Virus record (IMG/VR): IMGVR_UViG_2506520037_000005
Coordinates: 1 to 39,263 of that record
Direction: 5' to 3' (one strand)
Length of the DNA stretch: 39,263 nt
From: a virus
Lineage: Duplodnaviria; Heunggongvirae; Uroviricota; Caudoviricetes
Shown: positions 10,145 to 39,263 of the stretch, one piece after another
Layout: each line of letters opens with the position of its first letter
How positions within the stretch are numbered: position 1 is the stretch's first letter
The notes under the pieces: model-generated
Told to the model about the DNA's origin: nothing
The model's input: only the letters and a program-made list of their open reading frames with translations
Database searches by the model: none
Translations under genes and position numbers: made by a program

Positions 10145-10711
10145 TCAGGGGGATTCATTACTCTTATTTGCCGGAAATTTTCTATAAATTGTGGAAACAC
10201 CCACATCAAAAATCAGTGCAATACGCTGTCTTGATTCTCCGGCCTCGAGTAAGCGTCCAATCTGTGCCCACTGTTCGGTGGTCAACTTAGGACGGCGTCC
10301 ACCTACTCTGCCTTTGGCGCGAGCTGCAGCAAGCCCCGCCCTGGTACGTTCAACTATCAGTTCGCGTTCCATTTCAGCCAGGGCACCCATGACATGAAAA
10401 AAGAAACGGCCCATTGGGGTACTGGTATCAATACTGTCAGTCAGGCTTCGGAAATTCACACCTCGCTGGCGCAACTCTTCTATCAACGTAACAAGATGCC
10501 GCATACTGCGCCCCAACCTGTCCAGCTTCCAGACAACCAAAGTGTCACCTGCCGATAATGTCCTGAGCAGTTTTTTCAGTCCCGGTCTGTCGGACTTAGT
10601 GCCACTGATTTTGTCCTCAAAAATCCGCTCACATCCCGCGCAGTTCAGCGCATTACGTTGCAAATCGGTGTTCTGGTCATTTGTTGACACGCGTACATAG
10701 CCAATAAGCAT
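10145..10711 (-). CDS. Serine DNA invertase (Gin/Hin/Pin/Cin family)
   Basis: MLIGYVRVSTNDQNTDLQRNAL... with catalytic-serine motif and C-terminal HTH; near-collinear with Mu Gin as recalled. Real start is probably the ATG giving MLIGY (188 aa). Confidence 0.9.
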   Translation of the reverse strand: MLIGYVRVSTNDQNTDLQRNALNCAGCERIFEDKISGTKSDRPGLKKLLRTLSAGDTLVVWKLDRLGRSMRHLVTLIEELRQRGVNFRSLTDSIDTSTPMGRFFFHVMGALAEMERELIVERTRAGLAAARAKGRVGGRRPKLTTEQWAQIGRLLEAGESRQRIALIFDVGVSTIYRKFPANKSNESP

Positions 10712-10766
10712 GATCAATCCCCTGAATAAAAACCGGGGATGATGCCAGTTAGCCGTTATCTCTGCA

Positions 10767-10792
10767 TTTTCATAAACGTTGGTTTGGGAGAA
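10767..10792. other. Invertase crossover site, right (26-bp imperfect palindrome, gix/hix-like)
   Basis: TTTTCATAAACG TT GGTTTGGGAGAA; its right 14 bp are identical to the inverted copy inside gene H; lies 55 bp from the invertase start. Confidence 0.75.
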
Positions 10793-11122
10793 GCCAGATA
10801 TGTCATTCAGCGAGGAGCTAATGCCAATGGTGCATGGATACGCTGGTCAGATGGTGCAATAGAAGTATTTGGAACCGGTGGATCTAATGATAATGGACTG
10901 GCTAAAGTTGTTTACCCAATTGCACTGCCTAAACTTTCACGTTTTATCAGTATCGCGGAAAGAATAAGAACGGATTACGAGAGCACACCTAATAATGTTC
11001 ACGTTTCAATGATCGTGGATGATCAGGTAACAAATACCGGCTTTTATGCCCGCTGCCAGATGTACGACGGCAGACCATCATCAAATGCTTTTTCCTGGAG
11101 GGTTTATTGTGCGCCTGTTTAA
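10781..11122 (+). CDS. Promoterless alternative tail-fibre C-terminal segment (Sv'), expressed only after inversion
   Basis: The plus-strand ORF reads GLGE... in the same frame and from the same shared 14-bp core as the H gene; inversion would fuse the H constant part to this 113-codon segment. Confidence 0.6.
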   Translation, partial: GLGEARYVIQRGANANGAWIRWSDGAIEVFGTGGSNDNGLAKVVYPIALPKLSRFISIAERIRTDYESTPNNVHVSMIVDDQVTNTGFYARCQMYDGRPSSNAFSWRVYCAPV

Positions 11123-11141
11123 TCCAGTTACTTTGTAGTGG

Positions 11142-12398
<1,257 letters not shown>

Positions 12399-12535
12399 TG
12401 AAGTAATCCCCGGTCTTCATGACGTGACCGGGGCTATTGAATTACCGGAGGACAACTGGTTTTTTACTATGACAGAAATTCCTCAGGGCATGGAGCTAAC
12501 AATTAATGAGAAAGGCGAACCAATACTAATTGAGG

Positions 12536-13141
12536 TTAATCAGTCTCAGGGAATACAGGCCAAATAATATCAGGCGCGGTGCTGGTATCTGTTGCCGTCA
12601 CCGCGTCAGTGTAATCCAGCACAGCGTTAAGCCGGGTTGTTTCTGCCTGCGTCAGTTTCCGCCCGGCCTGTAATTTCAGCTGAATCAGACTAATGGAAGC
12701 CATTGCTGCATCAATCAGTGACTGACGCTGTGCTTCTGCCGCTTCTACTGCGGCACCGTGTTGTGCCTCAGTATCCGTCACCCATTTCTCACCATCCCAT
12801 TTATCGTATGGCGTTAATGGGGCGATAGTGGTTGTATTATCAGGGTAATTACCCGGAGCTGTGATTTCTTTTGATTCTCCTGTTGCGGTGCTAAAGACGA
12901 TTTCACCGCGATGGTCTGGCACATATTCCCATGAGTTAAAATCTGCAGAACGGCAGATTGTATAACCAGCTTTGTATGCGCCTGGAGCATCTAAACAGGA
13001 ACATGCCGGAATGCCGACACCAACGGCAAGATATTCAGTCGATATGGAAATATATTCCCGTGTTTCACCATCATAATTATAGACAGTAATATTCCCCGCC
13101 TTCGTGGCAATAAACTCGCTATTTAATACAGTGCTATCCAT
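12536..13141 (-). CDS. G: Tail fibre assembly protein (gpG/Tfa)
   Basis: 201-aa ORF immediately downstream of the tail fibre gene with 1-bp overlap. Confidence 0.8.
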   Translation of the reverse strand: MDSTVLNSEFIATKAGNITVYNYDGETREYISISTEYLAVGVGIPACSCLDAPGAYKAGYTICRSADFNSWEYVPDHRGEIVFSTATGESKEITAPGNYPDNTTTIAPLTPYDKWDGEKWVTDTEAQHGAAVEAAEAQRQSLIDAAMASISLIQLKLQAGRKLTQAETTRLNAVLDYTDAVTATDTSTAPDIIWPVFPETD

Positions 13142-17147: not shown

Positions 17148-18071
17148 ATGACAACTAACACCAATACCCCAGAAGCAGCTGAGCAAGATAATATTGTCCC
17201 CATGGATGCAATGAATGATCCCATCAATCCCCCACCTACAAAGAAGGAGAGGGATGAATACAAAAAAAAACAGCAAGAAAGAATTGGCAAATACGTCGTT
17301 GGTGGAACAGATTTGGGTGGAAACACCATAAGTAAAATTTATTCACGTGGGGATGAATATGTCATTTATGAAGTAGCCAATCTTCCGCCTCATGAGTCTA
17401 TGCTCGTGTTCATAGACTCAATCATTGAGGAGGATGACAGTAAGATTGATAGATATCATGCTTCAAAAGAGCACTTTGATGAGTTTATTTCACATTGCTA
17501 CAAATACAACTGCTCTTCTATTTATAAAAAAAGAGCAGCAACAGTTATGTCAGCAACAATACTTGGAAAAAATGATATAAACAAAAATAACTTCGCCGCA
17601 ATAAATAGAGACATTAAAAACGATTATGAAAACACAATGCTTGGAAGGAATTTATATCAATCAGGAGCCATAACTTTAGCATTGATATTCATCATCCTTG
17701 CATTGATAACATATTTGGCTAGAGATTCTAATTTCATAAAAGCTAATCACTTTATTCCAGTGGTGTTATACGCCGCTTCCTTTGCTTCCATCGGGGGGTT
17801 TATTTCTGTATCCCTAAAAATAAAAAGCCTCCATACAGACAGAGAACTAAAAAAGAAAACTTATTTCTTCTATGGTGCGGAGAGAATACTCCTTTCAATG
17901 ATGGCTGGCGTACTTGTATACTTTATGCTCAAGGGGAATATTATCTTCGGGTTTATGAATAATAGTAGTGACATCTCATTCTCCATTTATGTGATTTGTG
18001 CGCTTTCTGGATTCAGTGAAACATTGATACCGAATACATTGAGAAACCTTGAAACCAAATCCGAAATTTAA
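17148..18071 (+). CDS. Hypothetical membrane-anchored protein (soluble N-terminal region plus four predicted TM helices), opposite strand to the late genes
   Basis: AT-rich ORF inserted between V and S; own terminator downstream; possible -35/-10 (TTGATT/TATATT) upstream. Start is ambiguous between GTG 17127 and ATG 17148, and no Shine-Dalgarno is seen. Confidence 0.6.
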   Translation: MTTNTNTPEAAEQDNIVPMDAMNDPINPPPTKKERDEYKKKQQERIGKYVVGGTDLGGNTISKIYSRGDEYVIYEVANLPPHESMLVFIDSIIEEDDSKIDRYHASKEHFDEFISHCYKYNCSSIYKKRAATVMSATILGKNDINKNNFAAINRDIKNDYENTMLGRNLYQSGAITLALIFIILALITYLARDSNFIKANHFIPVVLYAASFASIGGFISVSLKIKSLHTDRELKKKTYFFYGAERILLSMMAGVLVYFMLKGNIIFGFMNNSSDISFSIYVICALSGFSETLIPNTLRNLETKSEI

Positions 18072-26908: not shown

Positions 26909-28690
26909 TCATTTAAAACGTGTTGCAATATCTGCTGCTTCGATAACTGTTGCTTTTACGGTATTATCGCCAGCACGATAATAAATATCCCCATCATAAC
27001 TAGAATAAGATGCTAGAAGTGGAATTGTAATAACTATAACTCCATAACCATAAAAGTCATTATAGTCAATCAAACTCACCACTTGTGATTTAAGAGGCTC
27101 ACTCAAAGCAGATTTTTTCAACTCATCGCAAAAACGTCTATAATATTCTTCCATTGATATGCCGAGTTTAATAGCTTCTCTTTTAACACCAACAACACTT
27201 CTCTCACCAACTACATGTGCATCTATATCATCAAGCTCTTTTACTCTACTTGTATCACTTGGTTTATCTGTTACACCAAGCAATAACTTACCAACTACAC
27301 CGTTCTTGTTACCTTTACCGATGTTAGCAATAGCACAAATTGTGGAGAATATTTTCTCATGAATGCCATCATCAATAGTTCGCTCTCCGCCTAACATCAA
27401 CAAACCCTGTTTCAGTTCATAATTTGCAAGCTCTATTTCAGATCTTCGTAAAATATCCTCAATATCCACCGTATTGTGAGAATTATAGATATGACTGCTA
27501 TCGGCGCTATCAATAAAGTTATCTTTAATCAAGCCTATGATAGAATTAATATTCTTTCTTCTCTCTTCCCCACCAGTAGCAGATCTTTTAGTATCTAGTC
27601 GAGTGACTATATTATTAAGATTGTCTTTTACACCTTTATAATTATTAATCTTCTTATTTTCTTTAATGAGTAATTCATGAAAAGCAATAAATAACACAGC
27701 AAATATGGCTGGGAAAGCATTTGTAGTACGTTTAGTAAAGATTAAATCCCTGAGTTTAATTTCACCGTCACTATTACATACTTTTGTTATTTCCTGGATG
27801 CAGAATTTAAACTCTTCTGCAAATTTTCCTTCACCATAAACATTAATAGCAGAGCTAATACGACTATACTCTTCATCTTCATTATTATAAATCTGATCAA
27901 GCGCATCTTTGGAACGATCTATTAACTTACCTCCAACAATACAAGCTGCTATATCTGCAATGCATTGCTCATCCATACTGTCACGAAGGTCTGTTGAACG
28001 TAAGATCCCATGTTTTACCCAAAATACTTCTTCCGACTGAATTTGGTAACCATGTTTAGTTAGTGGCAAATCAATGCTAATAGACGGCATTTGCTCTAAA
28101 AGCAATATGTCGTCAGATACATCCCCCCTGATAGAACAGGCAATATCCCTAACCATATTTGAAAATTTATTTTGTATACCAGCCTGGCGCCTTTCTTGAT
28201 CACTAAGTCTATGCCCGTATGTATTAATTCTATCAAAAACATCATTTATTTCGTTCTCAGTCGCATTACGCATAATGGACATTGCAAGAGAATAATCCAA
28301 TAACTGAGTAACCTCACGCTGACTTAAAAGATTATCAGCTTTCACTGCAACAAACTTACCTTCATCCGCTCGATTTTTCGCTGTGGGAAAAGCGTCCAGA
28401 TTAAAACGTTTTCCATCAAGTGATTCATATCCTGTTTCGATGAAAGACATTATTGCATGTAATCTTTGTAGGCCATCAATTATTTCATATGTGCCAGGAT
28501 CATTTTCCCTTTCCGCGAGAAGAACTGCAGGAATTGGATATTTTTTTTGAATGGATTCAATTAATTTTTGTTTCTCTATTGCAGTCCAAACTAATTTTCG
28601 TTGATAACGTCTATTAACAAATATCTTACCTTCAGTAAACCATGAATAAATAGTTTGTATAGAAGTTGTTTGCGGTAATAGTTCAGCCAT
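26909..28690 (-). CDS. DUF262 (ParB-like nuclease superfamily) protein, 593 aa, candidate anti-phage defence protein
   Basis: N-terminal DUF262 signature motifs (NRRYQRKLVW; IIDGLQRL, a DGQQR variant); AT-rich codon usage; lies in the Q-to-A variable region. No recognisable HNH motif in the C-terminal half. Confidence 0.7.
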   Translation of the reverse strand: MAELLPQTTSIQTIYSWFTEGKIFVNRRYQRKLVWTAIEKQKLIESIQKKYPIPAVLLAERENDPGTYEIIDGLQRLHAIMSFIETGYESLDGKRFNLDAFPTAKNRADEGKFVAVKADNLLSQREVTQLLDYSLAMSIMRNATENEINDVFDRINTYGHRLSDQERRQAGIQNKFSNMVRDIACSIRGDVSDDILLLEQMPSISIDLPLTKHGYQIQSEEVFWVKHGILRSTDLRDSMDEQCIADIAACIVGGKLIDRSKDALDQIYNNEDEEYSRISSAINVYGEGKFAEEFKFCIQEITKVCNSDGEIKLRDLIFTKRTTNAFPAIFAVLFIAFHELLIKENKKINNYKGVKDNLNNIVTRLDTKRSATGGEERRKNINSIIGLIKDNFIDSADSSHIYNSHNTVDIEDILRRSEIELANYELKQGLLMLGGERTIDDGIHEKIFSTICAIANIGKGNKNGVVGKLLLGVTDKPSDTSRVKELDDIDAHVVGERSVVGVKREAIKLGISMEEYYRRFCDELKKSALSEPLKSQVVSLIDYNDFYGYGVIVITIPLLASYSSYDGDIYYRAGDNTVKATVIEAADIATRFK

Positions 28691-28824: not shown

Positions 28825-28843
28825 CTCGTATCCCCGCCACGCC
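28825..28843 (-). other. Candidate cos cohesive-end core (GGCGTGGCGGGGATACGAG on the minus strand)
   Basis: Resembles the P2/186 19-nt cohesive end as I recall it (GGCG[A/T]GGCGGGGAAAGCA); that recollection is itself uncertain. Confidence 0.25.
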
Positions 28844-29222
28844 TGCCCGCTTTATGCAGTGGTTTTCATGCACATGCATGACATGAGCAAAAGCCCGCCA
28901 GTTCTGGCGGATCTGAGCAAAGACGATCCTCAATCGATCATGCGATTTCATGCAGCATAGTCATGCACTGTCAAGGAAGTGAAAATCCGTATCTGAATGG
29001 CCACTTGAAAAACGGATCATACGGGTTTACAAAGATGAATGTTCGCTGTGAACGGGAAGCGGAAGTTAACTTTCAGATAACATAATCCATATGCACGAGA
29101 ACCTCTAAAATAGAATGGGACACCTAAGTGGGGTACTTACAACGATTCTTTCCATATTCACAGTTAACACTCTGTTTGGCGTATTTTTATTCAAATAGCA
29201 AACACCAATAAAAGGAGTTTCC

Positions 29223-29750: not shown

Positions 29751-29984
29751 TTAATGCAGCCAGCTGTCGTCCTCCCACACCTTCTGCATAATTTTCATCA
29801 CTTGTTTTCTTTCTTCATCCAGTTGCAGTCCGGTTAGTTCCACACCGTTAGAGCTACCTTTGCGAATGCGAATTACCGTTTTGGGATACAGGGGGCGCAG
29901 ATTGCGGTAAAGCTCGGATTCAAGTGCGTCCAAGGTAGACTGGCTAATCTTCTGCTCTTTATCGATCATTATTTCAATGCGCAT
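29751..29984 (-). CDS. DinI-family protein
   Basis: MRIEIMIDKEQKISQSTLDALESEL...WEDDSW collinear with E. coli DinI as recalled; own SD (GAGGTGA). The longer ORF-track start is unlikely. Confidence 0.8.
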   Translation of the reverse strand: MRIEIMIDKEQKISQSTLDALESELYRNLRPLYPKTVIRIRKGSSNGVELTGLQLDEERKQVMKIMQKVWEDDSWLH

Positions 29985-29994
29985 AAAAGTCACC

Positions 29995-30183
29995 TCAGCT
30001 GATGACATCCATTGAGCGGTTGTATTCGTGGCTTCTGATTTTTGCCATGAGTTCATCAGTCAATTCAGAAACCCACTGCAGAGCCAGCCCCTTCTCTTCA
30101 TCACTACACTCACTAGCCGCTACAAGCTTAAGAAAAAAATCAATGCGCTGGAGCTTCAAAGACTCCAAAAAATAGTCCTGCAT
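29995..30183 (-). CDS. Small protein (62 aa), first gene of a LexA-controlled operon; possible Tum-like antirepressor
   Basis: ORF directly downstream of a consensus LexA box and upstream of the DinI-like gene. Confidence 0.5.
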   Translation of the reverse strand: MQDYFLESLKLQRIDFFLKLVAASECSDEEKGLALQWVSELTDELMAKIRSHEYNRSMDVIS

Positions 30184-30223
30184 CTTTCCTCCTATGACAC
30201 CAAAACAATACTGTATACATAAC

Positions 30224-30243
30224 CACTGTTTATATTTACAGTA
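30224..30243. promoter_or_regulatory. LexA (SOS) box overlapping a promoter
   Basis: cACTGTTTATATTTACAGTAt matches the CTGT-N8-ACAG consensus with an AT-rich spacer; sits upstream of the minus-strand small ORF. Confidence 0.7.
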
Positions 30244-30335
30244 TATAATAATCTTACTGATGTAAAACGTTTTTTTACGTTCATCGGCCTGATATGCCTG
30301 GTATTATTAAGAGCACGAATTGTTAACCCGCGTAA

Positions 30336-32750
30336 TTAATACAGGTTCCGCCACTTATCATCTTCCTTCAGACGCTGGTTCCGATAGAAGATACGCAGGC
30401 CTGCTCCTGACGGAATACTGCCGCCGCGAAGGAGCAAATCGACTTCTTTCTCGCTGCCATCAAATCCCCTGGACTTCAGTTCATAGACGAGCTGCTGTCG
30501 CTGATGGTCTGTAATTCGCTGTTTGTAGTCTTTACGCCGTTTCGGTTTCACCTGGCGTAACCTTGCAGCCAGTTCCCGGCGCTCTTTTTTGCTCATACTG
30601 TGCAGGTAATCGTGCAACTCCTTGTCATTCATACGGGTAATATCCGTTCTGGAGTCCCCATCAGCTGATTTGTCTTTCCCTTGTTGGTTCAAATTTTCAG
30701 CAAGGGGACAGTTATTGCCACGAGTCCAAGGGGCGCAAGCGCCCTGGTCGGCTACCGCCTCCTGAACGTCAACGGCCTTACGAACCATTTTCCACTTCAC
30801 TGCATGAGTGCAGATCTTGCCCTCTGAAATGGGTGACCAGATGCCATAAATACGAATACCGTGATCGCCATAGGCAGTCGGCTCTTCGTTAATTTCATAA
30901 GCTGTTCTGATAAGGTGATATTTGCGGGGAACCAGTACGCCGCCCTGCTTCATGATGTAGGTGGCAAAACAACCAGCATCAGCAGCAGCCAGGATGGCAT
31001 CAAGACGCGGATCATCCAGTACCGGCGCACCTGCTTTTTTGTCACCCTGTTGCCTTGCCGCCTGACCAGCCAGCAATCGCAGTTCACGGTAAGCCTGGCG
31101 CCCCGGAATACCAAAGAAGCGGAACTGCTGAACACGATGCAGAGACGCCCAGGCATTAACGTATTCGGCGTTATCACGCAGGGATTTACCCGTTTCCTTG
31201 CTGATCTCGCCAGCCAGACCACGCCCGTCAATGTTCTTACTGATGTATTTTGCGATGTAGCTTGTCGGCGTTCCTTTGCGTGGGTTTATCAGCTCAGACT
31301 TAAAGCGTGGGCCCGTGTTATTGCCCAGCTCCTCGCGGTCTTCACGGATGGCAAACTTACGCAACAATGCAGTAATGGCGCGGCGGTCTTTTTTGCGCAT
31401 GAAACACATGAGATGCCAGTGCACAGTACCGTCATGGTGCGGCTCAGCCACCCGTACGCCATACCAGCGCAACCCGGTTTTGTGCATCGCCTTACGAAAT
31501 GCAGCAAACATGCCGACCAGATAATCGCTGCTTTGTCTTACCGTCGCATTTGTCCAGGTCGGGTTGGGCCTGCCGTTATTGAGCGTGGAATGGAAACGTG
31601 ACGGACATGTGATGGTGTAGAAAACGGCGCAGTCACCGCGCATTTCCGCGATAAGCTCCAGACCTTTAACGCAGGCCATCATCTCATTGCGGCGATGTGC
31701 CGGGTTGCTGCTGCTGGCGTTTACCACATCTTCCATATCCAGCGTGTCTCCGTCTTCGTTCACCAGTTCATGAGAACGGAAAAACTCCAGCGACTTGCGG
31801 CGCTGCTCACGTTTATGCATCACGGCTTCATAGCTGACATAGGGAGATGCTTTTTTGCTGACCAGACAGACAGCACGCAACTGCTCTTCCCGCCATTCGC
31901 AACGCATCTTCCACAATTTTCGATACCACCAGTCGGCGCAAAGCATACGTGCCAGCGAACCCGGTATGAGTTCATAGGGCACAGGTTTGCGGCGGTTTCT
32001 TTTCCGACGAAGTTTCTCAAACGCAGGCGGGATAACATCCAGACGCAGGGTTTCCGCTGCCACCTTTTCCCATGTCTTGCGGATTTCTTCTGGCTTTACG
32101 TCATCGTTGGTATACAAATCACCACAAGCGGCCTCAAGACACATGCTCATATGCGCAGCTACCAGGGTGGACAGGCGTTTCACCTGATCCTGACTCATTT
32201 CAGGCAGGATCAGCAGGCCCTCCAGCCCTTGATGGCTTGCCATAAAACGGAAAGAAGTAGATAGCTGACTGTCGCGTACACAATCCAGTCGCTCCAGACA
32301 TGGCTTAATCGTCTCACGCAAATAGCGGGAATAAGCCTTTGGCCTGCCCAGGCTGCTGAAGTATTCGATACGTTGCATCAGCGGCTTGCTGATGTGGGTG
32401 GGCTGGGCGCTGACGTCCGCCAGAATGACCATGTCCGGGTTAAAACGCTGCTGCTCATGCGCCAGCTTTGCCCGACTAATGAGCTTATCCTGCTCCATTT
32501 CGCGCTGGACAGGATCACGGGATTCATTAAAGAAATAACGCTCCCAGACCTGTTCACTCAATTCCTCGCGGCGCAGCTGTTCCTGCTCGTTATCGGCAGC
32601 ATACAGAGTGATCAGGTTTGAAAGCGCAGAAACCGGCGCAACTTCCGCCGGGTCCAGATAAGGGTTTATGGCCTTTTTCGGGCCGTTCCATGAAAATGCT
32701 GCAGCGGCCTCGTTAAAGCCGCTAGAGTCGCTCATATCGGCATGACTCAT
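30336..32750 (-). CDS. A: Replication initiation protein A (rolling-circle nickase)
   Basis: 804-aa ORF in the P2 gpA position, recognised as P2 A-like. Confidence 0.85.
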
Positions 32751-33604
32751 ACACGCACCTCGTACACAGCAGAACTATCCACGCCACGCGAAGGATCAAA
32801 TCCCACCCAGCAGCGCGCCCCGGAAACAGCAATGATTTCTGTTGCAGATTTACTCTCGCCAGCCGACACGCCGATGCTGCGTTTTGCCTTGATGTAGTGG
32901 TGAGTGAAATTGCGATACAGCGAACGAATCAGGGATGTGTCACTGTTAGAAACAATGACCGGATGACCTTCAGATGATCGATATTCAAGAACGGATGCCA
33001 GGTGATACTGGTCATCTTCAGTGAAACCATCAGTGTGATAGCCGGAAAACGTACCGTCATAAGGCGGATCGCAATACACCACATCCCCCGCCTTCAACAT
33101 CGCCAGCGTTTCATCAAAGCTGGCGCAGATAAACGTTGCCCGCGGGGCTTTCTCTGCAAATGCGCGAATTTCTTTTTCAGGGAAATACGGATTTTTATAA
33201 TTACCGTAGGGAATGTTGAAATGCCCGCTCTTGTTATAGCGACATAAACCACGGTAACCGTGACGATTGAGATACAGGAAATATATCGCCTTCATGAAAT
33301 CAGTAATTTCAGTTGAGTAATTAAACTCCTGTCTTATGTTGTAATAAGCCAGCTCACTGTTTGCTTCCTCAAATAAAACTCTGGCACGAGATATAAACGC
33401 TTCGCAATCAGCGGCAATCTTTTTATAGAGGTTGATTAAATCAGGATTAATATCCGCAACCAGATAGCTGGGGTAATCCGTCGCCATCATCACAGCACAA
33501 GAACCCGCGAAAGGTTCAACCAGTCGCGGGCCAGCAGGAAGGTATTTTTTCAGTTCGGACATAATGGCGGTTTTATTACCCGCCCATTTCAGGATGGTGC
33601 TCAT
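32747..33604 (-). CDS. DNA adenine methyltransferase (Dam-like)
   Basis: Motif [10 protein letters not shown] and motif IV DPPY; probable start [11 protein letters not shown] overlapping the TraR-like stop as ATGA; 4-bp overlap with A. Confidence 0.8.
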
Positions 33605-33828
33605 ACAGCACCTCCGTTGTAATGTTTGCCTTTCAGCTCTGCGATTTCCTGGCAGGTAATGCAAAGCTGCACTCCCGGAATGGCGCGGCGTCGTGCTGGC
33701 GGAATTGGCGCTTCACATTCAATGCAAAGTACGCGTGACACGCCCGGTGTTTTGGCACGGGCTGCACGGATATGGCGCTGGCGTTCTTCTTCAACGCGCT
33801 GCTGTACGAGATCCATTGCATCAGCCAT
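33601..33828 (-). CDS. TraR/DksA-family C4 zinc-finger protein
   Basis: CIECEAPIP...LCITCQ four-cysteine motif in a 75-aa protein. Confidence 0.75.
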   Translation of the reverse strand: MADAMDLVQQRVEEERQRHIRAARAKTPGVSRVLCIECEAPIPPARRRAIPGVQLCITCQEIAELKGKHYNGGAV

Positions 33829-34067
33829 TAGTAGATCTCCTGCGCTTCGTTCTGGATTGCTTCAGCAGTCACACGCAGCAGTTCTGCCGCTTCCACGTGG
33901 TTTAGCTGGCGGGATGAGATATGACACGCCAGGCTATCAAGGCGAGCAGCCATTGCTTCAGCCCTTGCCCGGCGTTCTTCCAGACGAGCCTCTGTCAGTA
34001 AAATATTAAGCCCTGCGTCATCCGGTCCGGTTTTAGTCGTGAGGGTTTCAATATTACGCATAATCAA
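33828..34067 (-). CDS. Hypothetical early protein
   Basis: 79-aa ORF with start/stop overlap to the TraR-like gene. Confidence 0.55.
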   Translation of the reverse strand: MIMRNIETLTTKTGPDDAGLNILLTEARLEERRARAEAMAARLDSLACHISSRQLNHVEAAELLRVTAEAIQNEAQEIY

Positions 34068-34128
34068 TTCTCCTGAATTTAGATAAAGGGATGCCCGGCG
34101 GGTTTACGCCATTAATTTCATTAGTTGG

Positions 34129-34470
34129 TTAATTCGGCATGGTTAGCCGTCTGGGAAATAAGCTCACCACTGCACGAAAATGATTCATTGCTTTAATCAA
34201 CTCCCGCTTTTCGTCAGTGGTCAGCTCATTAATGCTGATGCTATGACGTTCAGCTGGAATTTTTGCCATAAAGAATATGGCAGCCAGTGCCCGTTTATTT
34301 TGTTCATTATTGATATCCCGTGGATCACGCATATCTTTAATAAACCGCTCAAGCTCTGACTCAATATTCAGGCCAAACACTTTCGCCCTTAACTCCGCAA
34401 TGTGATTAAGTCCATTCAGGCGTTCACCGGGGCTTAATGGAACAGTCGCCGCAGCGCCTTCAATAGCCAT
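34129..34470 (-). CDS. Hypothetical early protein
   Basis: 113-aa ORF in the early operon; weak SD. Confidence 0.5.
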   Translation of the reverse strand: MAIEGAAATVPLSPGERLNGLNHIAELRAKVFGLNIESELERFIKDMRDPRDINNEQNKRALAAIFFMAKIPAERHSISINELTTDEKRELIKAMNHFRAVVSLFPRRLTMPN

Positions 34471-34551
34471 TTACGCATCCCACAACACATCTACTAAAAA
34501 ATTTTTGATATGATCCATTACCAACATATTGATAGCTAGAAGGAATCATCA

Positions 34552-34800
34552 ATGTTGAACCCGGTTGAAAGAGAGCGTATAGAGCAACTTGAAAACGAGA
34601 TCTCCAGTCTTCGCGATGAGGTTGCTGTTCAACGAATTCTTGTTTCAGGTCTGATCCACTCCTTATTTCGAACTGACTCAGCAAATCAATCTGCATTTTT
34701 TGAGCTCCTCCGCGAAGAATTAAACAAACTTCCTTTAGGTTCGGTTAAACAACAAGAATTCACTCATCTGATACAGACACTGATAGATCGTTACCGATAA
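34552..34800 (+). CDS. Hypothetical small coiled-coil protein, antisense to the early operon
   Basis: 82-aa ORF with SD (AAGGAA) and heptad-like N-terminus; competes with an overlapping minus-strand ORF at 34460-34696. Confidence 0.35.
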   Translation: MLNPVERERIEQLENEISSLRDEVAVQRILVSGLIHSLFRTDSANQSAFFELLREELNKLPLGSVKQQEFTHLIQTLIDRYR

Positions 34801-35015
34801 ATATTTCGCCGATAACGTTCAAGAGGTGATGTCTTTATACGCATCACTTCTTGTACTTTTTCACCACGTATAAAGGTTCCATCCTTTAGAGTGAAAAAGT
34901 AGCTACCATCGCCCGACAACGACGGATAGCAACAGAGCAAATCATCTTCAGGTACTGAATAATTCTCCCCTCTGTAACGAAAGTGATAAACCACTTCATT
35001 TTCTGCCGCATACAT
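34791..35015 (-). CDS. Hypothetical early protein (186 fil/dhr region)
   Basis: 74-aa ORF with SD (GGAGAAAG); overlaps another minus-frame ORF (34886-35215). Confidence 0.45.
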   Translation of the reverse strand: MYAAENEVVYHFRYRGENYSVPEDDLLCCYPSLSGDGSYFFTLKDGTFIRGEKVQEVMRIKTSPLERYRRNIYR

Positions 35016-35189
35016 TTGGACTTTCTCCGTTTCCTCGTGGTCAATTCAGACAGCAATTCATCTTGTGAACGGCACGGATGCCAGTGTTTACCATCCTCAC
35101 CCATGATCCAGCCGTGACCGTAGTGCATTGCCGGGCTTTGTTTTACCAGCAGCGATGCAAATGATGGCTCTTTCGTCAGCATAAGCACC

Positions 35190-35699
35190 TCACAGCAAAC
35201 CGAATGAAGCACCAAGGCCAGTCACGGTATCCACCGCACTTGCCATTGCTGGATTCGCCTGTAGACGTGCCTGCAATGAAACTGCGGTCAGTGCCATCAA
35301 ACGCGTAACTGAATTAATACTGCTGATTACATCGCGGCGGCCTGCGGTAGTTTTCACTTCACCAGAGACAGCACCGGCAGCAACACGCCCGATCTCTGCT
35401 GTAGCATTCAGAACGTAGTACGGCATCTTCTCGCTTGCTACTTCGTTCACAGGGACACACGCCAGACAGTTAATCTGCGCCAGAAAGCCATCAACCAAAG
35501 TTGGGTCCTCGGTGAGATCTGTAAGCAGCCAGATCTCTGGCGCAGTGAGCTGGTGCGACTGCTCTGGGTTCAGCTTATTACGCAGGGTTTGAACGTTCAT
35601 ACCTGCGCGTTCTGCCAGCTTCGACATGTTGTGACGCAAAGCGAAGGTCCGGCAGGCTTCATCAAAATGTCTTTGTTTGGAAACTTTATAATCAAACAT
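35190..35699 (-). CDS. cII: CII-like lysogeny-establishment regulator (186 CII type)
   Basis: 169 aa from internal ATG (MFDYKVSKQRHFDEACRTFALRHNMSKLAE...GASFGLL), collinear with 186 CII as recalled. Confidence 0.8.
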   Translation of the reverse strand: MFDYKVSKQRHFDEACRTFALRHNMSKLAERAGMNVQTLRNKLNPEQSHQLTAPEIWLLTDLTEDPTLVDGFLAQINCLACVPVNEVASEKMPYYVLNATAEIGRVAAGAVSGEVKTTAGRRDVISSINSVTRLMALTAVSLQARLQANPAMASAVDTVTGLGASFGLL

Positions 35700-35764
35700 A
35701 GTTTTCATCTCCGAACTTATCGCAAAATCGAACCATAAAACAGATTTCGATAAGCAAAGTCTTT

Positions 35765-35968
35765 TCATGCCGAAAGTGCATCTACTGTCAAAGCAGCCAT
35801 GTTAATCATGACTTTTTCACGCTTCTTATCTTTACGGAGACGATGCCGCGGAAGTCGGCCATCAGCCAACATGTCATTGATCGTATCAACCGGAAGGCCT
35901 GTGAGTTCGCTATAACGTTCAATTGTGACGTGTGGTGTGTTCAGAGTGATTGAAATGTTTGGGTTCAT
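35765..35968 (-). CDS. apl: Apl/Cox-type excisionase and lytic-switch regulator
   Basis: About 67 aa from internal ATG (MNPNISITLN...) with an HTH-like segment; first gene of the rightward early operon; SD AAGGAA. Confidence 0.7.
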   Translation of the reverse strand: MNPNISITLNTPHVTIERYSELTGLPVDTINDMLADGRLPRHRLRKDKKREKVMINMAALTVDALSA

Positions 35969-36058
35969 GGTGCAACATTCCTTCTTTAATTCGGCTTGTG
36001 GCGAGCCGTTGTTTATCGTGATTAGTTGTGAAGGCTCCAAAAGAAGACTTCGAGGTCA

Positions 36059-36088
36059 ACTTTAAGATCGCTTTTGGAATCTGTCAAT
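36059..36088 (-). promoter_or_regulatory. Candidate early lytic promoter pR (-35 TTGACA, 17-bp spacer, -10 TAAAGT)
   Basis: Consensus -35 and acceptable -10 read on the minus strand upstream of apl, in the face-to-face position expected for a 186-type switch. Confidence 0.45.
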
Positions 36089-36114
36089 GCAATTTAGATT
36101 GTTTTGGAGGACTC

Positions 36115-36678
36115 TTGAATTTCAATAGCGGCGGAAAGAAAGTGATTGAACGTTTGGTTGAGGCGTATGGTTTCACCACTCGTCAGGCCCTTTGCGACCA
36201 CTTAGGGGTTTCAAAGAGCACAATGGCAACCCGCTACATGCGTGACATTTTTCCAGCAGATTGGGTACTTCAATGCGTTGTAGAAACTGGTACTTCAATT
36301 GATTGGCTGGTATCAGGGAAAGGTGAGTTAAAAACCACAGCAGTCAACTCTTTGGTAGACGTTGAAACTCGCGAACTAAAAAATGGAGAGGCTATTGCAC
36401 TTGGAACGCACAAGATTGATCCAGTCTTTCTTCTCAATGAAATAAAATCTGCATTAGCGATAAAAATTAACCAACATGTTTACATTTGTGACCGAGAAGA
36501 CACTACCATTTCTGATGGTCAATGGTTGGTGGATATAGAAGGAAAACTGAGTATTAAAAAAATCAATTTGATACCAGTCAAAAGAGCAATGGTATCTGGG
36601 GATGGTTTTTCATTTGAATGTGATATTAGTGATATAAAACCTATAGCTAAGGTTCATACCGTAATCAGTGAGGCTTAA
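36115..36678 (+). CDS. cI: CI-type immunity repressor (186 CI-like, N-terminal HTH)
   Basis: HTH segment (TTRQALCDHLGVSKSTMATRYMR) and about 190-aa size. Start is uncertain: the ORF opens at 36028, but an in-frame TTG at 36115 follows a GGAGG. Confidence 0.7.
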   Translation: MNFNSGGKKVIERLVEAYGFTTRQALCDHLGVSKSTMATRYMRDIFPADWVLQCVVETGTSIDWLVSGKGELKTTAVNSLVDVETRELKNGEAIALGTHKIDPVFLLNEIKSALAIKINQHVYICDREDTTISDGQWLVDIEGKLSIKKINLIPVKRAMVSGDGFSFECDISDIKPIAKVHTVISEA

Positions 36679-38130
36679 ATGGATATTGAGTGGAATTGGG
36701 ATCAAGATGACGAATTTCTTGGTGAAAAATTACCTGCAGATACATTGGACAGAAAAAAGTACGCAAAATATCTTTATGAAATCTGTGCTGCACGCGGTGC
36801 TAAATCCAATCTCGTAGTTAACATTAATGCGGAATGGGGGGCTGGAAAAACATATTTTACTAAACGCCTAGCCAAGACAATTTCCCACTACCATCCCACA
36901 ATATACATTGATGCTTGGAAAGAAGATTTTACTGAAGACCCATTGCTCACAGTATTTAGTGGAATTAAAGATCAATTATCTGGTCAATCTGATAGCTTTA
37001 CTGCTTTAATCAATTCAACAATTGAGAATGTCGGTCCTTTGCTAAAAACAGCGGCACCAGTTATTATTGATGGATTAATACAAAAGTTCACAGGGGTTGA
37101 CTCCTTTTCTAACCTAACTAAAGACTTATCATCTAAGCTAATAGAAATACACGCAGAAAAATCAACGAGAATAGAGACAGTAAGAAAAGGAATTAGTCGT
37201 TGGGTTGAATTCATTGGGCGAAAAGATGGAATAGATAAAGAGCTTCCATTATTTATAATAATTGATGAACTTGATAGATGTAGGCCCGATTTTTCCATTA
37301 GTCTTTTAGAAATCTCCAAGCATATTTTTAACATCCCTGGCGTAGTATTTATTATTGCCACTGACACCCAACAATTACAGCATTCAATAAAAGTTATATA
37401 TGGCACTAATTTTTCAGCAAGTCATTATCTAAGCAGGTTTTTTGACCGTCGATTCCTTCTCCCAACGCCAGAATACAAAGACTTACTATTAACAAAAACA
37501 GGTGAAAACATAATTTCGGAATTTAATTCTTTACGTGAAAAATTAATTCCATGCCCACAAGACATCACATCATTTGTTAAAAATTGTTCATCCATATTAT
37601 TATCCATAAAAATAAACATCAGAGACGCTGTAAAAATATACGAGAGGCTAATAGACATACTTATCACGTCAAATAAAACATTTGACCCCAATCTAATGTT
37701 GATATTATCTGCATTTAATTTCAAAGATCATGATGTATATGCAAAAATAAAATCAAAAGAAAAGCTAATTCCTAGTCCTCTCAACACAGAAATAGATTTA
37801 TCATTTGATTTATCTTATGAAACTACACAAGTCAAGTACTTCCAAGCTAATGGTGGTGTTTATAGTAATACGTATAAACAAAAAGAAATTTCAACAAATG
37901 TTCTATTTTACATAGAGACTGCTTGGAACACCTTAACGATAGCAAGAACCGCACCTGTTGGCACGCGACCTTACAATACTCCAGAACTTTGGATGGAAGG
38001 AGAGTTGTCTCAGGAGGAATCATTAGCGAACTTTCTCAAAATGGGATACGCCAAAAGCCGGTACAATGAAAGTGAACTAAAAATTCATCAATATTTCGAT
38101 TTAATTGAACTGAGCACAACATTTGATTGA
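36679..38130 (+). CDS. KAP-family P-loop NTPase (PifA-like), candidate phage-exclusion protein
   Basis: Walker A EWGAGKT and the KAP-type Walker B FIIIDELDRCRP; ATG follows the cI stop codon directly; AT-rich. Confidence 0.75.
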   Translation: MDIEWNWDQDDEFLGEKLPADTLDRKKYAKYLYEICAARGAKSNLVVNINAEWGAGKTYFTKRLAKTISHYHPTIYIDAWKEDFTEDPLLTVFSGIKDQLSGQSDSFTALINSTIENVGPLLKTAAPVIIDGLIQKFTGVDSFSNLTKDLSSKLIEIHAEKSTRIETVRKGISRWVEFIGRKDGIDKELPLFIIIDELDRCRPDFSISLLEISKHIFNIPGVVFIIATDTQQLQHSIKVIYGTNFSASHYLSRFFDRRFLLPTPEYKDLLLTKTGENIISEFNSLREKLIPCPQDITSFVKNCSSILLSIKINIRDAVKIYERLIDILITSNKTFDPNLMLILSAFNFKDHDVYAKIKSKEKLIPSPLNTEIDLSFDLSYETTQVKYFQANGGVYSNTYKQKEISTNVLFYIETAWNTLTIARTAPVGTRPYNTPELWMEGELSQEESLANFLKMGYAKSRYNESELKIHQYFDLIELSTTFD

Positions 38131-38210: not shown

Positions 38211-39263
38211 ATGGCAGTACGAAAACTCGACACAGGTAAATGGATATGCGAATGCTACCCCGCCGGGCGCAGCGGACGGCGTGTGCGTAAGCAATTCGCC
38301 ACCAAAGGTGAAGCGTTAGCATTTGAACGGCACATAATGGAGGAAACTGAAGCTAAGCCCTGGCTGGGTGAATCGGTAGATCGCCGAACTCTGAAAGACG
38401 TCGTTGAACTCTGGTTCAAACTGCACGGCAAATCTCTGACCGCTGGCGAGCATGTTTACGACAAGCTGATCCTGATGGTCGAAGCTCTCGGAAATCCCCT
38501 CGCCACCGATTTAACATCCAAAATGTTCGCGCACTATCGCGATAAACGCCTGACAGGAGAGATCTACTTCAGCGAGAAATGGAAGAAAGGAGCAAGCCCG
38601 GTCACTATTAATCTGGAGCAAAGCTATCTAAGTAGTGTTTTTAGCGAACTATCCCGCCTGGGCGAATGGTCGTATCCGAACCCACTGGAGAACATGCGAA
38701 AATTCACCATCGCAGAAAAAGAGATGGCATGGCTTACCCATGAGCAGATTGTTGAATTGCTGGCTGATTGCAAACGTCAGGACCCAATTCTGGCACTGGT
38801 AGTTAAGATATGCTTAAGCACAGGCGCACGCTGGCGTGAAGCCGTAAATCTTACCCGCTCGCAGGTGACCAAATACCGAATTACCTTTGTAAGAACGAAG
38901 GGGAAGAAAAACAGAAGCATCCCTATCAGTAAAGAGCTTTACGAAGAGATCATGGCGCTTGATGGGTTCAATTTCTTCACAGACTGCTATTTTCAATTTT
39001 TATCCGTGATGGAAAAAACGTCTATCGTGCTGCCTCGCGGTCAACTGACACACGTTCTGCGCCATACGTTTGCGGCGCACTTCATGATGTCGGGTGGAAA
39101 CATCCTGGCCTTACAAAAAATTCTCGGACACCACGATATAAAAATGACTATGCGTTATGCGCATCTGGCACCGGATCATCTGGAAACGGCGCTCCGTTTC
39201 AATCCTCTGGCAACATTGCCAAGTGGCGACAAAGTGGCGGCAGCGGTTGGCATTACCCCGTAA
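38211..39263 (+). CDS. int: Tyrosine integrase (P2/186 family)
   Basis: 350-aa ORF; C-terminal catalytic region with R...HxxR...Y (VLRHTFAAH...MRYAHL); stop codon is the last 3 nt of the window. Confidence 0.9.
   Translation: MAVRKLDTGKWICECYPAGRSGRRVRKQFATKGEALAFERHIMEETEAKPWLGESVDRRTLKDVVELWFKLHGKSLTAGEHVYDKLILMVEALGNPLATDLTSKMFAHYRDKRLTGEIYFSEKWKKGASPVTINLEQSYLSSVFSELSRLGEWSYPNPLENMRKFTIAEKEMAWLTHEQIVELLADCKRQDPILALVVKICLSTGARWREAVNLTRSQVTKYRITFVRTKGKKNRSIPISKELYEEIMALDGFNFFTDCYFQFLSVMEKTSIVLPRGQLTHVLRHTFAAHFMMSGGNILALQKILGHHDIKMTMRYAHLAPDHLETALRFNPLATLPSGDKVAAAVGITP

What the first reader, a model, noticed from the sequence alone, without database searches (positions are those of the whole stretch)
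32747..33828. Dam-like methyltransferase translationally coupled between a TraR-like protein and replication gene A
A D12-class N6-adenine methyltransferase (EPFAGS, DPPY) overlaps the TraR-like stop as ATGA and overlaps the A start by 4 bp. A phage Dam inside the early/replication operon could protect against restriction or modulate host GATC-dependent processes.
Basis: partly seen in the sequence, partly recalled or inferred. Interest (0 to 1): 0.35.

Follow-up and report, generated by a model that had tools for sequence, protein, structure and literature searches.

The report
Prophage Dam methylase upstream of replication gene
This is an ordinary, already annotated DNA adenine (Dam-type) methylase gene of a P2/186-like prophage carried by roughly a quarter of complete E. 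coli genomes, packed tightly between a small zinc-finger gene and the phage replication gene.

Summary
A 285-aa ORF (32747..33604, minus strand) is a full-length Dam-family N6-adenine DNA methyltransferase. It matches Pfam PF02086 (E 1e-75) and TIGR00571 (318 bits), and is 46% identical to E. coli Dam. DPPY and EPFAGS are present. Six of seven EcoDam GATC-contact residues are kept. Its ATG overlaps the stop of the TraR/DksA-type zinc-finger gene as ATGA, and its stop overlaps the ATG of replication gene A as ATGA.

The window is a Felsduovirus-type (186/Fels-2/RE2010-like) prophage next to ybjL. RefSeq already calls the gene "DNA adenine methylase". The exact protein occurs on 336 public contigs, and the module occurs in 1246 of 5426 complete E. 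coli genomes and in 58 phage records. A GenBank note ties the family to the retron-Ec67 Dam methylase described in 1990.

The position before A is a variable accessory slot in Peduoviridae, and A always overlaps whichever ORF sits there. No restriction partner is present, so the enzyme is an orphan. It is under purifying selection (dN/dS 0.16). It most likely methylates GATC on replicating phage DNA during lytic growth; the biological benefit is inferred, not shown.

One speculative extra: two conserved GATC sites lie 82 and 93 bp from cos in Dam-encoding relatives and are absent in 186 and P2.

The parts
32747..33604 (-). Dam-family orphan N6-adenine DNA methyltransferase CDS (285 aa plus stop)
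   Evidence: PF02086 E 1.3e-75, model positions 1-253 of 253. TIGR00571 317.9 bits against a cut-off of 114.85. EcoDam structures 2g1p/4gol E 6.5e-72. RefSeq WP_000104176.1 'DNA adenine methylase'.
33059..33070 (-). Codons for catalytic motif IV, DPPY (aa 179-182)
   Evidence: Invariant in the 8-sequence alignment that includes EcoDam.
33500..33517 (-). Codons for EPFAGS (aa 30-35), AdoMet-binding motif I. Here it reads F-A-G-S-C rather than the FxGxG of EcoDam.
   Evidence: E30, P31, F32 and G34 are invariant. The Cys replacing the last Gly is shared by the phage clade.
33601..33604 (-). ATGA overlap: Dam start codon and TraR-like stop codon
32747..32750 (-). ATGA overlap: gene A start codon and Dam stop codon
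33610..33615 (-). Shine-Dalgarno GGAGGT for Dam, 5 nt before the ATG, inside the TraR-like ORF
   Evidence: Junction sequence
32756..32761 (-). Shine-Dalgarno GAGGTG for gene A, 5 nt before the ATG, inside the Dam ORF
   Evidence: Junction sequence
33592..33615 (-). Predicted RNA hairpin pairing the Dam SD (GGAGGUGCU) with codons 2-5; the AUG lies in the loop
   Evidence: the 120-nt context has z = -4.0, but much of that comes from a larger hairpin upstream. Covariation among relatives is weak.
33601..33828 (-). TraR/DksA-type C4 zinc-finger protein gene (75 aa)
   Evidence: PF01258 E 3.1e-11. TIGR02419 65.8 bits against a cut-off of 59.7.
33828..34061 (-). DUF2732 gene; its stop overlaps the TraR-like start by 1 bp (TAATG)
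30336..32750 (-). Replication initiator/endonuclease gene A (804 aa)
   Evidence: PF05840 E 6.5e-128
36059..36087 (-). Candidate early lytic promoter (pR-like, TTGACA-17-TAAAGT) that would drive the operon containing Dam
   Evidence: Consensus scan and sequence. The position is analogous to pR of phage 186. This is inference only.

Best explanation
The ORF encodes a functional orphan Dam-type DNA methyltransferase of a Felsduovirus-type (P2/186-like) prophage. It most probably methylates N6 of adenine in GATC.

It occupies the variable accessory slot between the TraR/DksA-like zinc-finger gene and replication gene A, in the early lytic operon transcribed from the CI-repressed pR promoter. It would therefore be made together with the A nickase when the phage replicates, not in the quiescent lysogen.

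Translation probably passes from ORF to ORF (DUF2732, TraR-like, Dam, A) through 1- and 4-bp stop/start overlaps, with an SD for each downstream gene embedded in the upstream ORF.

The likely benefit is that rapidly replicating phage DNA, which outruns the limited host Dam, becomes fully GATC-methylated before packaging. Progeny genomes would then behave as 'self' DNA towards GATC-methylation-sensitive nucleases and towards the host's hemimethylation readers (MutH, SeqA).

Shown here: family, motifs, recognition residues, orphan context, overlaps, purifying selection, wide distribution. Inferred: enzymatic activity, GATC specificity, timing of expression, coupling, and the selective benefit.
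For: Family and chemistry:
- Full-length matches to PF02086 and TIGR00571, and to the EcoDam crystal structures at E 6.5e-72; 46% identity to EcoDam.
- DPPY is intact.
- The best PADLOC model is 'orphan methyltransferase', 363 bits.

Specificity:
- The EcoDam residues that read GATC are R124, Y119, L122, P134, N120, K9 and Y138, as described in PMC4417163.
- They align to R122, Y117, L120, P132, R118, K6 and Y136, so 6 of 7 are kept.

Orphan status:
- The neighbours are the TraR-like gene and A; there is no nuclease.

Selection and spread:
- dN/dS is 0.16 against the RE2010 orthologue.
- The same module occurs in 1246 of 5426 complete E. coli genomes and in 58 phage records from Klebsiella, Salmonella, Escherichia and Yersinia.
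- The exact protein is found on 336 contigs.

Slot and coupling:
- P2 has orf83 in this slot. Phage 186 has an exonuclease, a DUF5405 gene and orf84, with the record's note that translation to the end of orf84 appears necessary for A translation.
- Dam genes of 41-95% identity to this one (alignment A1) sit one or two ORFs upstream of A in six further Peduoviridae genera, and A always overlaps whichever ORF precedes it.
- SD sequences and ATGA overlaps are; the SD-sequestering hairpin is.

Prior description:
- The SopEPhi GenBank record calls its 285-aa orthologue 'similar to retron EC67 DNA adenine methylase'.
- The corresponding paper is Hsu, Inouye & Inouye 1990, cited in PMC7826664.
Against: - No activity or specificity data were obtained here, and the 1990 paper could not be read.
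- EcoDam N120 is replaced by Arg, motif I reads FAGSC rather than FxGxG, and a 5-residue loop after DPPY is deleted. Altered or relaxed specificity is therefore not excluded.
- All known hosts already have Dam, so the benefit of a second GATC methylase is not obvious. 186 and P2 do without it.
- GATC frequency in the prophage is unremarkable: 120 sites, 0.73 of the Markov expectation, within the range of other palindromic tetramers.
- This copy of the prophage carries an IS3 insertion and a disrupted fil region upstream of Dam, so the gene may not be expressed normally in this strain.
Confidence: 0.8

Rival explanations
1. The main target is the host, not the phage genome. A burst of Dam during lytic growth over-methylates the chromosome. 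This would abolish the hemimethylated state read by SeqA and MutH and change Dam-sensitive promoters, as a form of host takeover.
For: The gene is co-expressed with other host-directed early genes of this operon family: fil (cell-division inhibitor) and dhr (host replication inhibitor) in the phage 186 record, and the TraR/DksA-like RNA-polymerase-binding type protein. Established knowledge of E. coli Dam (my own knowledge): overproduction is mutagenic and disturbs oriC sequestration.
Against: Nothing in the sequence distinguishes host from phage targets. The lytic cycle is short. 186 and P2 lack the gene.
Confidence: 0.12
2. What selection maintains at this position is mainly an ORF that delivers ribosomes to the start of gene A (a translational leader). 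The methylase is interchangeable cargo.
For: The slot holds unrelated genes in different Peduoviridae: DUF5405 in P2; exonuclease plus DUF5405 plus a PAPS-reductase-like gene in 186; Dam alone, Dam plus exonuclease, or Dam plus a second methyltransferase elsewhere. A always overlaps the last of them by 4-20 bp. The phage 186 record notes that translation to the end of orf84 appears necessary for A translation, with a terminator that acts when A is untranslated.
Against: dN/dS of 0.16 and invariant catalytic and DNA-contact residues across 41-95% identical homologues show that the enzyme itself is under selection. The Dam/A junction RNA has no notable structure (z = +0.76), and A has its own good SD.
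Confidence: 0.1
3. Dam methylation is tied to DNA packaging. Two GATC sites next to cos must be methylated, or be hemi- or unmethylated, for proper terminase action. The analogy is the Dam-dependent pac site of phage P1 (my own knowledge).
For: GATC sites at 28925 and 28936 lie 82 and 93 bp from the cos cut, inside a block with CATGCA repeats. They are invariant in 9 phages of 6 genera, all of which encode Dam next to A. Dam-less 186 keeps the CATGCA repeats but has no GATC in its last 296 nt. Dam-less P2 has none in its last 215 nt.
Against: The nine Dam-encoding phages form one related group, so this is essentially one evolutionary observation. The block is 85-90% conserved overall, so two conserved tetramers are expected by descent. 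GATC clustering in the window is not above chance (P = 0.54). An independent Dam-encoding lineage (Quadragintavirus) gave no recognisable P2-type cos for comparison.
Confidence: 0.08
4. It is the methylase half of a restriction-modification system, or an inactive remnant.
For: Dam-family enzymes include Type II R-M methylases such as DpnM (E 1e-33; PADLOC MTase_II models).
Against: There is no endonuclease gene next to it; the neighbours are the TraR-like gene and A in every relative examined. The best PADLOC model is the orphan class. The ORF is intact, full length and under purifying selection.
Confidence: 0.02

Closest known systems
Dam methylase of the retron-Ec67 prophage (Hsu, Inouye & Inouye 1990) and the Dam of Fels-2/SopEPhi/RE2010-type Felsduoviruses
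   Same: Same length (285 aa; 858-bp genes in SopEPhi, RE2010 and Cartapus). Same position between the TraR-like gene and A. 95% protein identity to RE2010 and to Klebsiella phage orthologues. The SopEPhi record links its orthologue to the Ec67 methylase.
   Different: Nothing substantive; this is another allele. The prophage differs in its cargo (a GmrSD-like gene instead of a retron near cos, and a KAP NTPase beside cI). Direct identity to the Ec67 protein could not be computed because that sequence is not in the collections searched.
E. coli chromosomal Dam (EcoDam, PDB 2G1P)
   Same: Same fold family and motif order. 46% identity. DPPY, K9, Y119, L122, R124, P134 and Y138 equivalents are conserved, so GATC specificity is expected.
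   Different: It does not reach the chromosomal-Dam equivalog threshold (281.6 against 441 bits). N120 is replaced by Arg, motif I reads FAGSC, a 5-residue loop after DPPY is deleted, and the C-terminal tail is different. It is encoded in a repressed prophage operon rather than in the damX-dam-rpe operon.
Other phage orphan Dam enzymes (P1 Dmt, T4 Dam, Dam genes of jumbo and cyanophages)
   Same: Orphan GATC-type methylases carried by phages. P1 Dmt is 36% identical. The T4 Dam structures match at E 6.5e-17.
   Different: They are much more distant in sequence and sit in different genomic contexts. P1 Dmt is a fusion protein, and in P1 Dam methylation is needed at pac (my own knowledge); no such link has been shown here.
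Accessory ORFs preceding gene A in P2 (orf83) and 186 (orf84)
   Same: Same slot. They are non-essential in P2 and 186, overlap the A start, and are proposed to be translationally coupled to A.
   Different: The proteins are unrelated (DUF5405; PAPS-reductase-like).

Membership tests
Dam family / D12-class (alpha-group) N6-adenine DNA methyltransferases | Full-length match to the family profile above the curated threshold | tested here: met
   PF02086: 254.8 bits against a cut-off of 22, model positions 1-253 of 253. TIGR00571: 317.9 bits against 114.85.
Dam family / D12-class (alpha-group) N6-adenine DNA methyltransferases | Catalytic motif IV (D/N)PP(Y/F) | tested here: met
   DPPY at aa 179-182, invariant in alignment A1.
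Dam family / D12-class (alpha-group) N6-adenine DNA methyltransferases | AdoMet-binding motif I (FxGxG) and the acidic motif II residue | tested here: inconclusive
   E30, P31, F32, G34 and D51 are conserved, but the last Gly is Cys (F-A-G-S-C). The substitution is shared by a whole phage clade under purifying selection. Cofactor binding was not tested.
Dam family / D12-class (alpha-group) N6-adenine DNA methyltransferases | Alpha-group order: AdoMet-binding region, then target-recognition region, then catalytic region | tested here: met
   Motif I is at aa 30-36, the recognition hairpin at aa 117-136 and DPPY at aa 179. The protein is collinear with EcoDam over residues 4-260.
GATC-specific Dam enzymes (EcoDam-like) | Residues that read GATC in EcoDam (K9, Y119, N120, L122, R124, P134, Y138) | tested here: met
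   6 of 7 are identical (K6, Y117, L120, R122, P132, Y136). N120 is Arg118. Residue roles are taken from PMC4417163.
GATC-specific Dam enzymes (EcoDam-like) | Methylation of GATC demonstrated (DpnI/MboI assay or methylome) | not testable with these tools
   This needs expression in a dam- host.
Chromosomal Dam orthologue (NCBIfam NF008152 equivalog) | Score above the equivalog cut-off, and the damX-dam-rpe chromosomal context | tested here: not met
   281.6 bits against a cut-off of 441. The gene lies in a prophage early operon, unlike the MG1655 dam locus.
Type II restriction-modification system | Adjacent cognate restriction endonuclease gene | tested here: not met
   The flanking genes are the TraR-like zinc finger and replication gene A, here and in all relatives examined. 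The best PADLOC model is the orphan methyltransferase class.
Felsduovirus-type (186/Fels-2-like) Peduoviridae early replication module | Gene order cII - fil - DUF5347 - DUF2732 - TraR-like - (accessory slot) - A - DinI/Tum-like | tested here: met
   The window annotation matches RE2010, SopEPhi, SEN8, Cartapus and the Klebsiella phages. DNA identity over the module is 95-96%.

The most novel reading that the evidence does not exclude
The phage Dam is functionally linked to packaging. The two GATC sites conserved 82 and 93 bp from the cos cut (28925, 28936) occur in every Dam-encoding relative examined and are absent from Dam-less 186 and P2. They could make terminase recognition or cos cleavage depend on methylation state. 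That would be a cos-phage counterpart of the Dam-controlled pac site of P1, and would explain why these phages carry a second GATC methylase in a Dam-positive host.
Probability: 0.08. Interest if true: 0.45.

Novelty: already known. Interest (0 to 1): 0.1.

Why it matters
It matters little as a discovery. The gene is annotated in RefSeq, it is common in E. coli, Klebsiella and Salmonella prophages, and its family was described with the retron-Ec67 element in 1990.

Its remaining value is as a well-defined test case for an old, unsettled question: why do temperate phages of Dam-positive hosts carry their own GATC methylase? It also illustrates that the position just upstream of the P2-family replication gene A is a swappable slot for DNA-modification and DNA-metabolism genes that stay translationally joined to A.

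Tried and rejected
- GATC under- or over-representation. The prophage has 120 sites, 0.73 of the Markov expectation, within the spread of other palindromic tetramers. No signal.
- GATC clustering. The maximum is 4 sites in 110 bp, reached in 54% of random placements. Not significant.
- Promoter and terminator scan of 29900-36200. Counts are at or below shuffle expectation, and there is no internal promoter for dam on the minus strand.
- RNA structure at the Dam/A junction. Unremarkable (z = +0.76).
- Covariation support for the SD-sequestering hairpin at the TraR/Dam junction. Only 2 of 10 pairs show double changes, and the downstream arm is constrained by the conserved N-terminus of the protein. 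Kept only as a suggestion.
- Reading Hsu et al. 1990 (PMC55184). Not held. Searches for 'Eco67Dam' and 'STM2730' gave nothing useful.
- Looking for cos-proximal GATC sites in an independent Dam-encoding lineage (Quadragintavirus ev129). No P2-type cos was recognisable between portal and A, so the correlation could not be tested independently.
- Restriction-modification and inactive-remnant readings. Rejected on context and conservation.
- Large protein-database searches and structure prediction were not run. 46% identity to a solved structure, and exact matches in public records, made them unnecessary.
Full report
**What is there**

On the minus strand, an ORF runs from ATG 33604 to TGA 32747 and encodes 285 aa ([11 protein letters not shown]...YEVRV). 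The mechanical ORF list extends it to a TTG at 33664. The ATG at 33604 is the credible start for three reasons. It has GGAGGT 5 nt upstream. All homologues, and EcoDam, align from this point. RefSeq annotates it there.

The upstream gene (33601..33828) is a 75-aa TraR/DksA-type C4 zinc-finger protein (PF01258 E 3e-11; TIGR02419). The downstream gene (30336..32750) is the P2-family replication initiator A (PF05840 E 6.5e-128).

Both junctions read ATGA, so stop and start overlap by 4 bp. DPPY is at aa 179-182 and EPFAGS at aa 30-35.

The overlaps are not special. In the RefSeq annotation of this same stretch, 17 adjacent same-strand gene pairs overlap, seven of them by exactly 4 bp.

**What the protein is**

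It matches the D12-class methyltransferase model over its whole length (PF02086, 254.8 bits) and the Dam subfamily model (TIGR00571, 317.9 bits against a cut-off of 114.85). Its best solved relatives are the E. coli Dam structures (E 6.5e-72), followed by DpnM and T4 Dam. Identity to EcoDam is 46%.

The residues that read GATC in EcoDam are described in PMC4417163:
- R124 contacts the guanine of the fourth base pair.
- Y119 intercalates.
- L122 and P134 contact the third base pair.
- N120 makes a base contact.
- K9 and Y138 read the first base pair.

These align here to R122, Y117, L120, P132, R118, K6 and Y136. Six of seven are kept, and N120 is Arg.

Other deviations from EcoDam are a Cys in place of the last glycine of motif I (F-A-G-S-C), a five-residue deletion after DPPY, and a different C-terminal tail. 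These features are shared by the phage clade.

The gene is under purifying selection (dN/dS 0.16 against the RE2010 orthologue), so an active enzyme is expected. GATC specificity is likely but unproven.

The protein does not reach the equivalog threshold for chromosomal Dam (281.6 against 441 bits). It has no nuclease neighbour, and its best PADLOC model is 'orphan methyltransferase'.

**Where it sits**

The module around dam (window 32300-34100) is 100% identical to E. coli B-766, and the RefSeq gene coordinates of the corresponding 39,263-bp stretch coincide with the window's ORFs. It contains a P2/186-like prophage next to ybjL, and the gene is annotated there as 'DNA adenine methylase', WP_000104176.1.

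The 1.8-kb module around the gene is widespread:
- It occurs in 1246 of 5426 complete E. coli genomes, including strain W.
- It occurs at 95-96% identity in Klebsiella, Salmonella and Escherichia phages classified as Felsduovirus and related genera.
- The exact protein is on 336 public contigs.

The SopEPhi GenBank record describes its 285-aa orthologue as 'similar to retron EC67 DNA adenine methylase'. That methylase was reported by Hsu, Inouye and Inouye in 1990, in a 34-kb 186-related element (cited in PMC7826664). I could not read the paper itself. The feature is therefore known.

**The slot before gene A**

Comparison of annotated records shows that the position between the TraR-like gene and A is variable:
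- P2 has orf83, a DUF5405 protein.
- 186 has an exonuclease, a DUF5405 gene and a PAPS-reductase-like orf84.
- SEN8 has the exonuclease plus Dam.
- RE2010, SopEPhi, Cartapus and the Klebsiella Dagavirus and Gegevirus phages have Dam alone.
- Quadragintavirus, Irrigatiovirus and Novemvirus phages carry Dam genes only 41-51% identical to this one (alignment A1), one or two ORFs upstream of A and without a TraR-like gene beside them. The first two also have a second methyltransferase; the Novemvirus phage has a small hypothetical ORF instead.

In every case the start of A overlaps the end of the preceding ORF by 4 to 20 bp. The phage 186 record notes that translation to the end of orf84 appears necessary for translation of A.

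The conserved feature is therefore the coupling of A to whatever ORF precedes it.

At the other end, a predicted hairpin pairs the Dam SD (GGAGGUGCU) with codons 2-5 and leaves the AUG in the loop. That would make Dam initiation depend on ribosomes finishing the TraR-like ORF. Covariation support is weak.

**How it most likely works**

The gene lies in the early lytic operon downstream of a pR-like promoter (36087..36059). No convincing internal promoter or terminator separates it from that promoter or from A. It should therefore be silent in the lysogen and be made with the replication nickase after induction or infection.

My best reading is that it raises Dam activity while the phage replicates, so that progeny DNA is fully methylated at its ~120 GATC sites before packaging. 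That host Dam is limiting for fast-replicating phage DNA is established knowledge, not something tested here.

The benefit is inferred. Candidates are resistance to GATC-methylation-sensitive nucleases, avoidance of MutH and SeqA action on hemimethylated DNA, and effects on the host chromosome.

A dam- background is required.

**Rivals**

- Host takeover by over-methylation. Possible; nothing here discriminates.
- The ORF as an interchangeable translational leader for A. Supported by the slot comparison, but it cannot explain the conserved catalytic and DNA-contact residues.
- A packaging link. See the next section.
- An R-M methylase or a dead gene. Rejected on context and conservation.

**A speculative lead**

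The cos core lies at 28825..28843, located by alignment with the right end of 186. Two GATC sites, 82 and 93 bp away (28925, 28936), are invariant in nine phages of six genera. All nine encode Dam next to A.

Dam-less 186 keeps the surrounding CATGCA repeats but has no GATC in its last 296 nt. Dam-less P2 has none in its last 215 nt. This recalls the Dam-dependent pac site of P1 (my own knowledge).

The evidence is weak. The nine phages are related, the block is 85-90% conserved anyway, GATC clustering is not above chance, and I could not obtain an independent contrast.

**Verdict**

The biological role is still open. The feature is ordinary and already annotated, so interest is low.

Noticed in passing
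window 36679-38130 (+): A 483-aa KAP-family P-loop NTPase gene is wedged between the cI repressor gene (36028-36678) and int (38211-39263). Its ATG directly follows the cI stop, so it would be co-transcribed with the repressor in the lysogen. Pfam KAP_NTPase E 8e-36. It matches the PADLOC candidate defence family PDC-S20 at 275 bits, with weaker PifA and QatA similarity. In 186, RE2010, SEN8 and Cartapus, cI and int are adjacent.
   Followed up: partly
window 26909-28690 (-): A 593-aa protein with a GmrSD_N (DUF262-type) domain lies between the portal gene and cos. This is the slot that holds retrons Ec67/Ec86 in 186-related prophages and old/tin in P2. PADLOC NsnA-like, 106 bits. It is likely anti-phage cargo.
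   Followed up: partly
window 28825-29015: The cos core (reverse complement of GGCGTGGCGGGGATACGAG) is at 28825-28843. Two GATC sites (28925, 28936) are conserved in all Dam-encoding relatives examined and absent from the homologous stretch of Dam-less 186. A third site (28910) is specific to this window.
   Followed up: partly
window 10145-12567: An IS3-family transposase with a programmed frameshift (11142-12319) is inserted beside the DNA invertase gene (10145-10711) and a short tail-fibre C-terminal fragment (10742-11122; weak Gp53-like_C match). The invertible tail-fibre region appears disrupted, so this prophage copy may be defective.
   Followed up: no
window 34471-35182: The fil gene is a truncated pseudogene (35027-35182). 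About 560 bp of unrelated DNA lies between it and the DUF5347 gene. It carries small ORFs on both strands with no family match (34552-34800 plus strand; 34460-34696 and 34791-35015 minus strand) and a 13-bp-stem hairpin at 34820-34853. This lies inside the early operon upstream of dam and A and could affect their transcription.
   Followed up: no
window 17148-18071 (+): A 307-aa ORF with no Pfam, NCBIfam or PADLOC match is transcribed opposite to the surrounding baseplate and tail-completion genes. It is a moron-like insertion of unknown function.
   Followed up: partly
window 36028-36141: The pR-like promoter (TTGACA-17-TAAAGT, 36087..36059, minus strand) lies inside the 5' end of the cI ORF as annotated (GTG at 36028). 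The Pfam CI domain begins only at residue 39, so an internal GTG near 36139 is a more plausible cI start. A GATC (36066-36069) abuts the -10 element, which is compatible with chance.
   Followed up: no
L005 3343-4353; L006 3705-4628; L003 4744-5748: In several Peduoviridae the ORF immediately before A is a ~310-335-aa protein annotated either 'DNA methyltransferase' (Quadragintavirus, Irrigatiovirus) or 'phosphoadenosine phosphosulfate reductase' (186 orf84). Whether these are one family, and what DNA chemistry they perform next to Dam, was not examined.
   Followed up: no
window 33565-33684 (-): The 3' end of the TraR-like ORF forms a strongly predicted RNA structure (MFE -45.7 kcal/mol, z = -4.0). 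It consists of a long hairpin within the zinc-finger coding region plus the hairpin that sequesters the Dam SD and AUG.
   Followed up: partly
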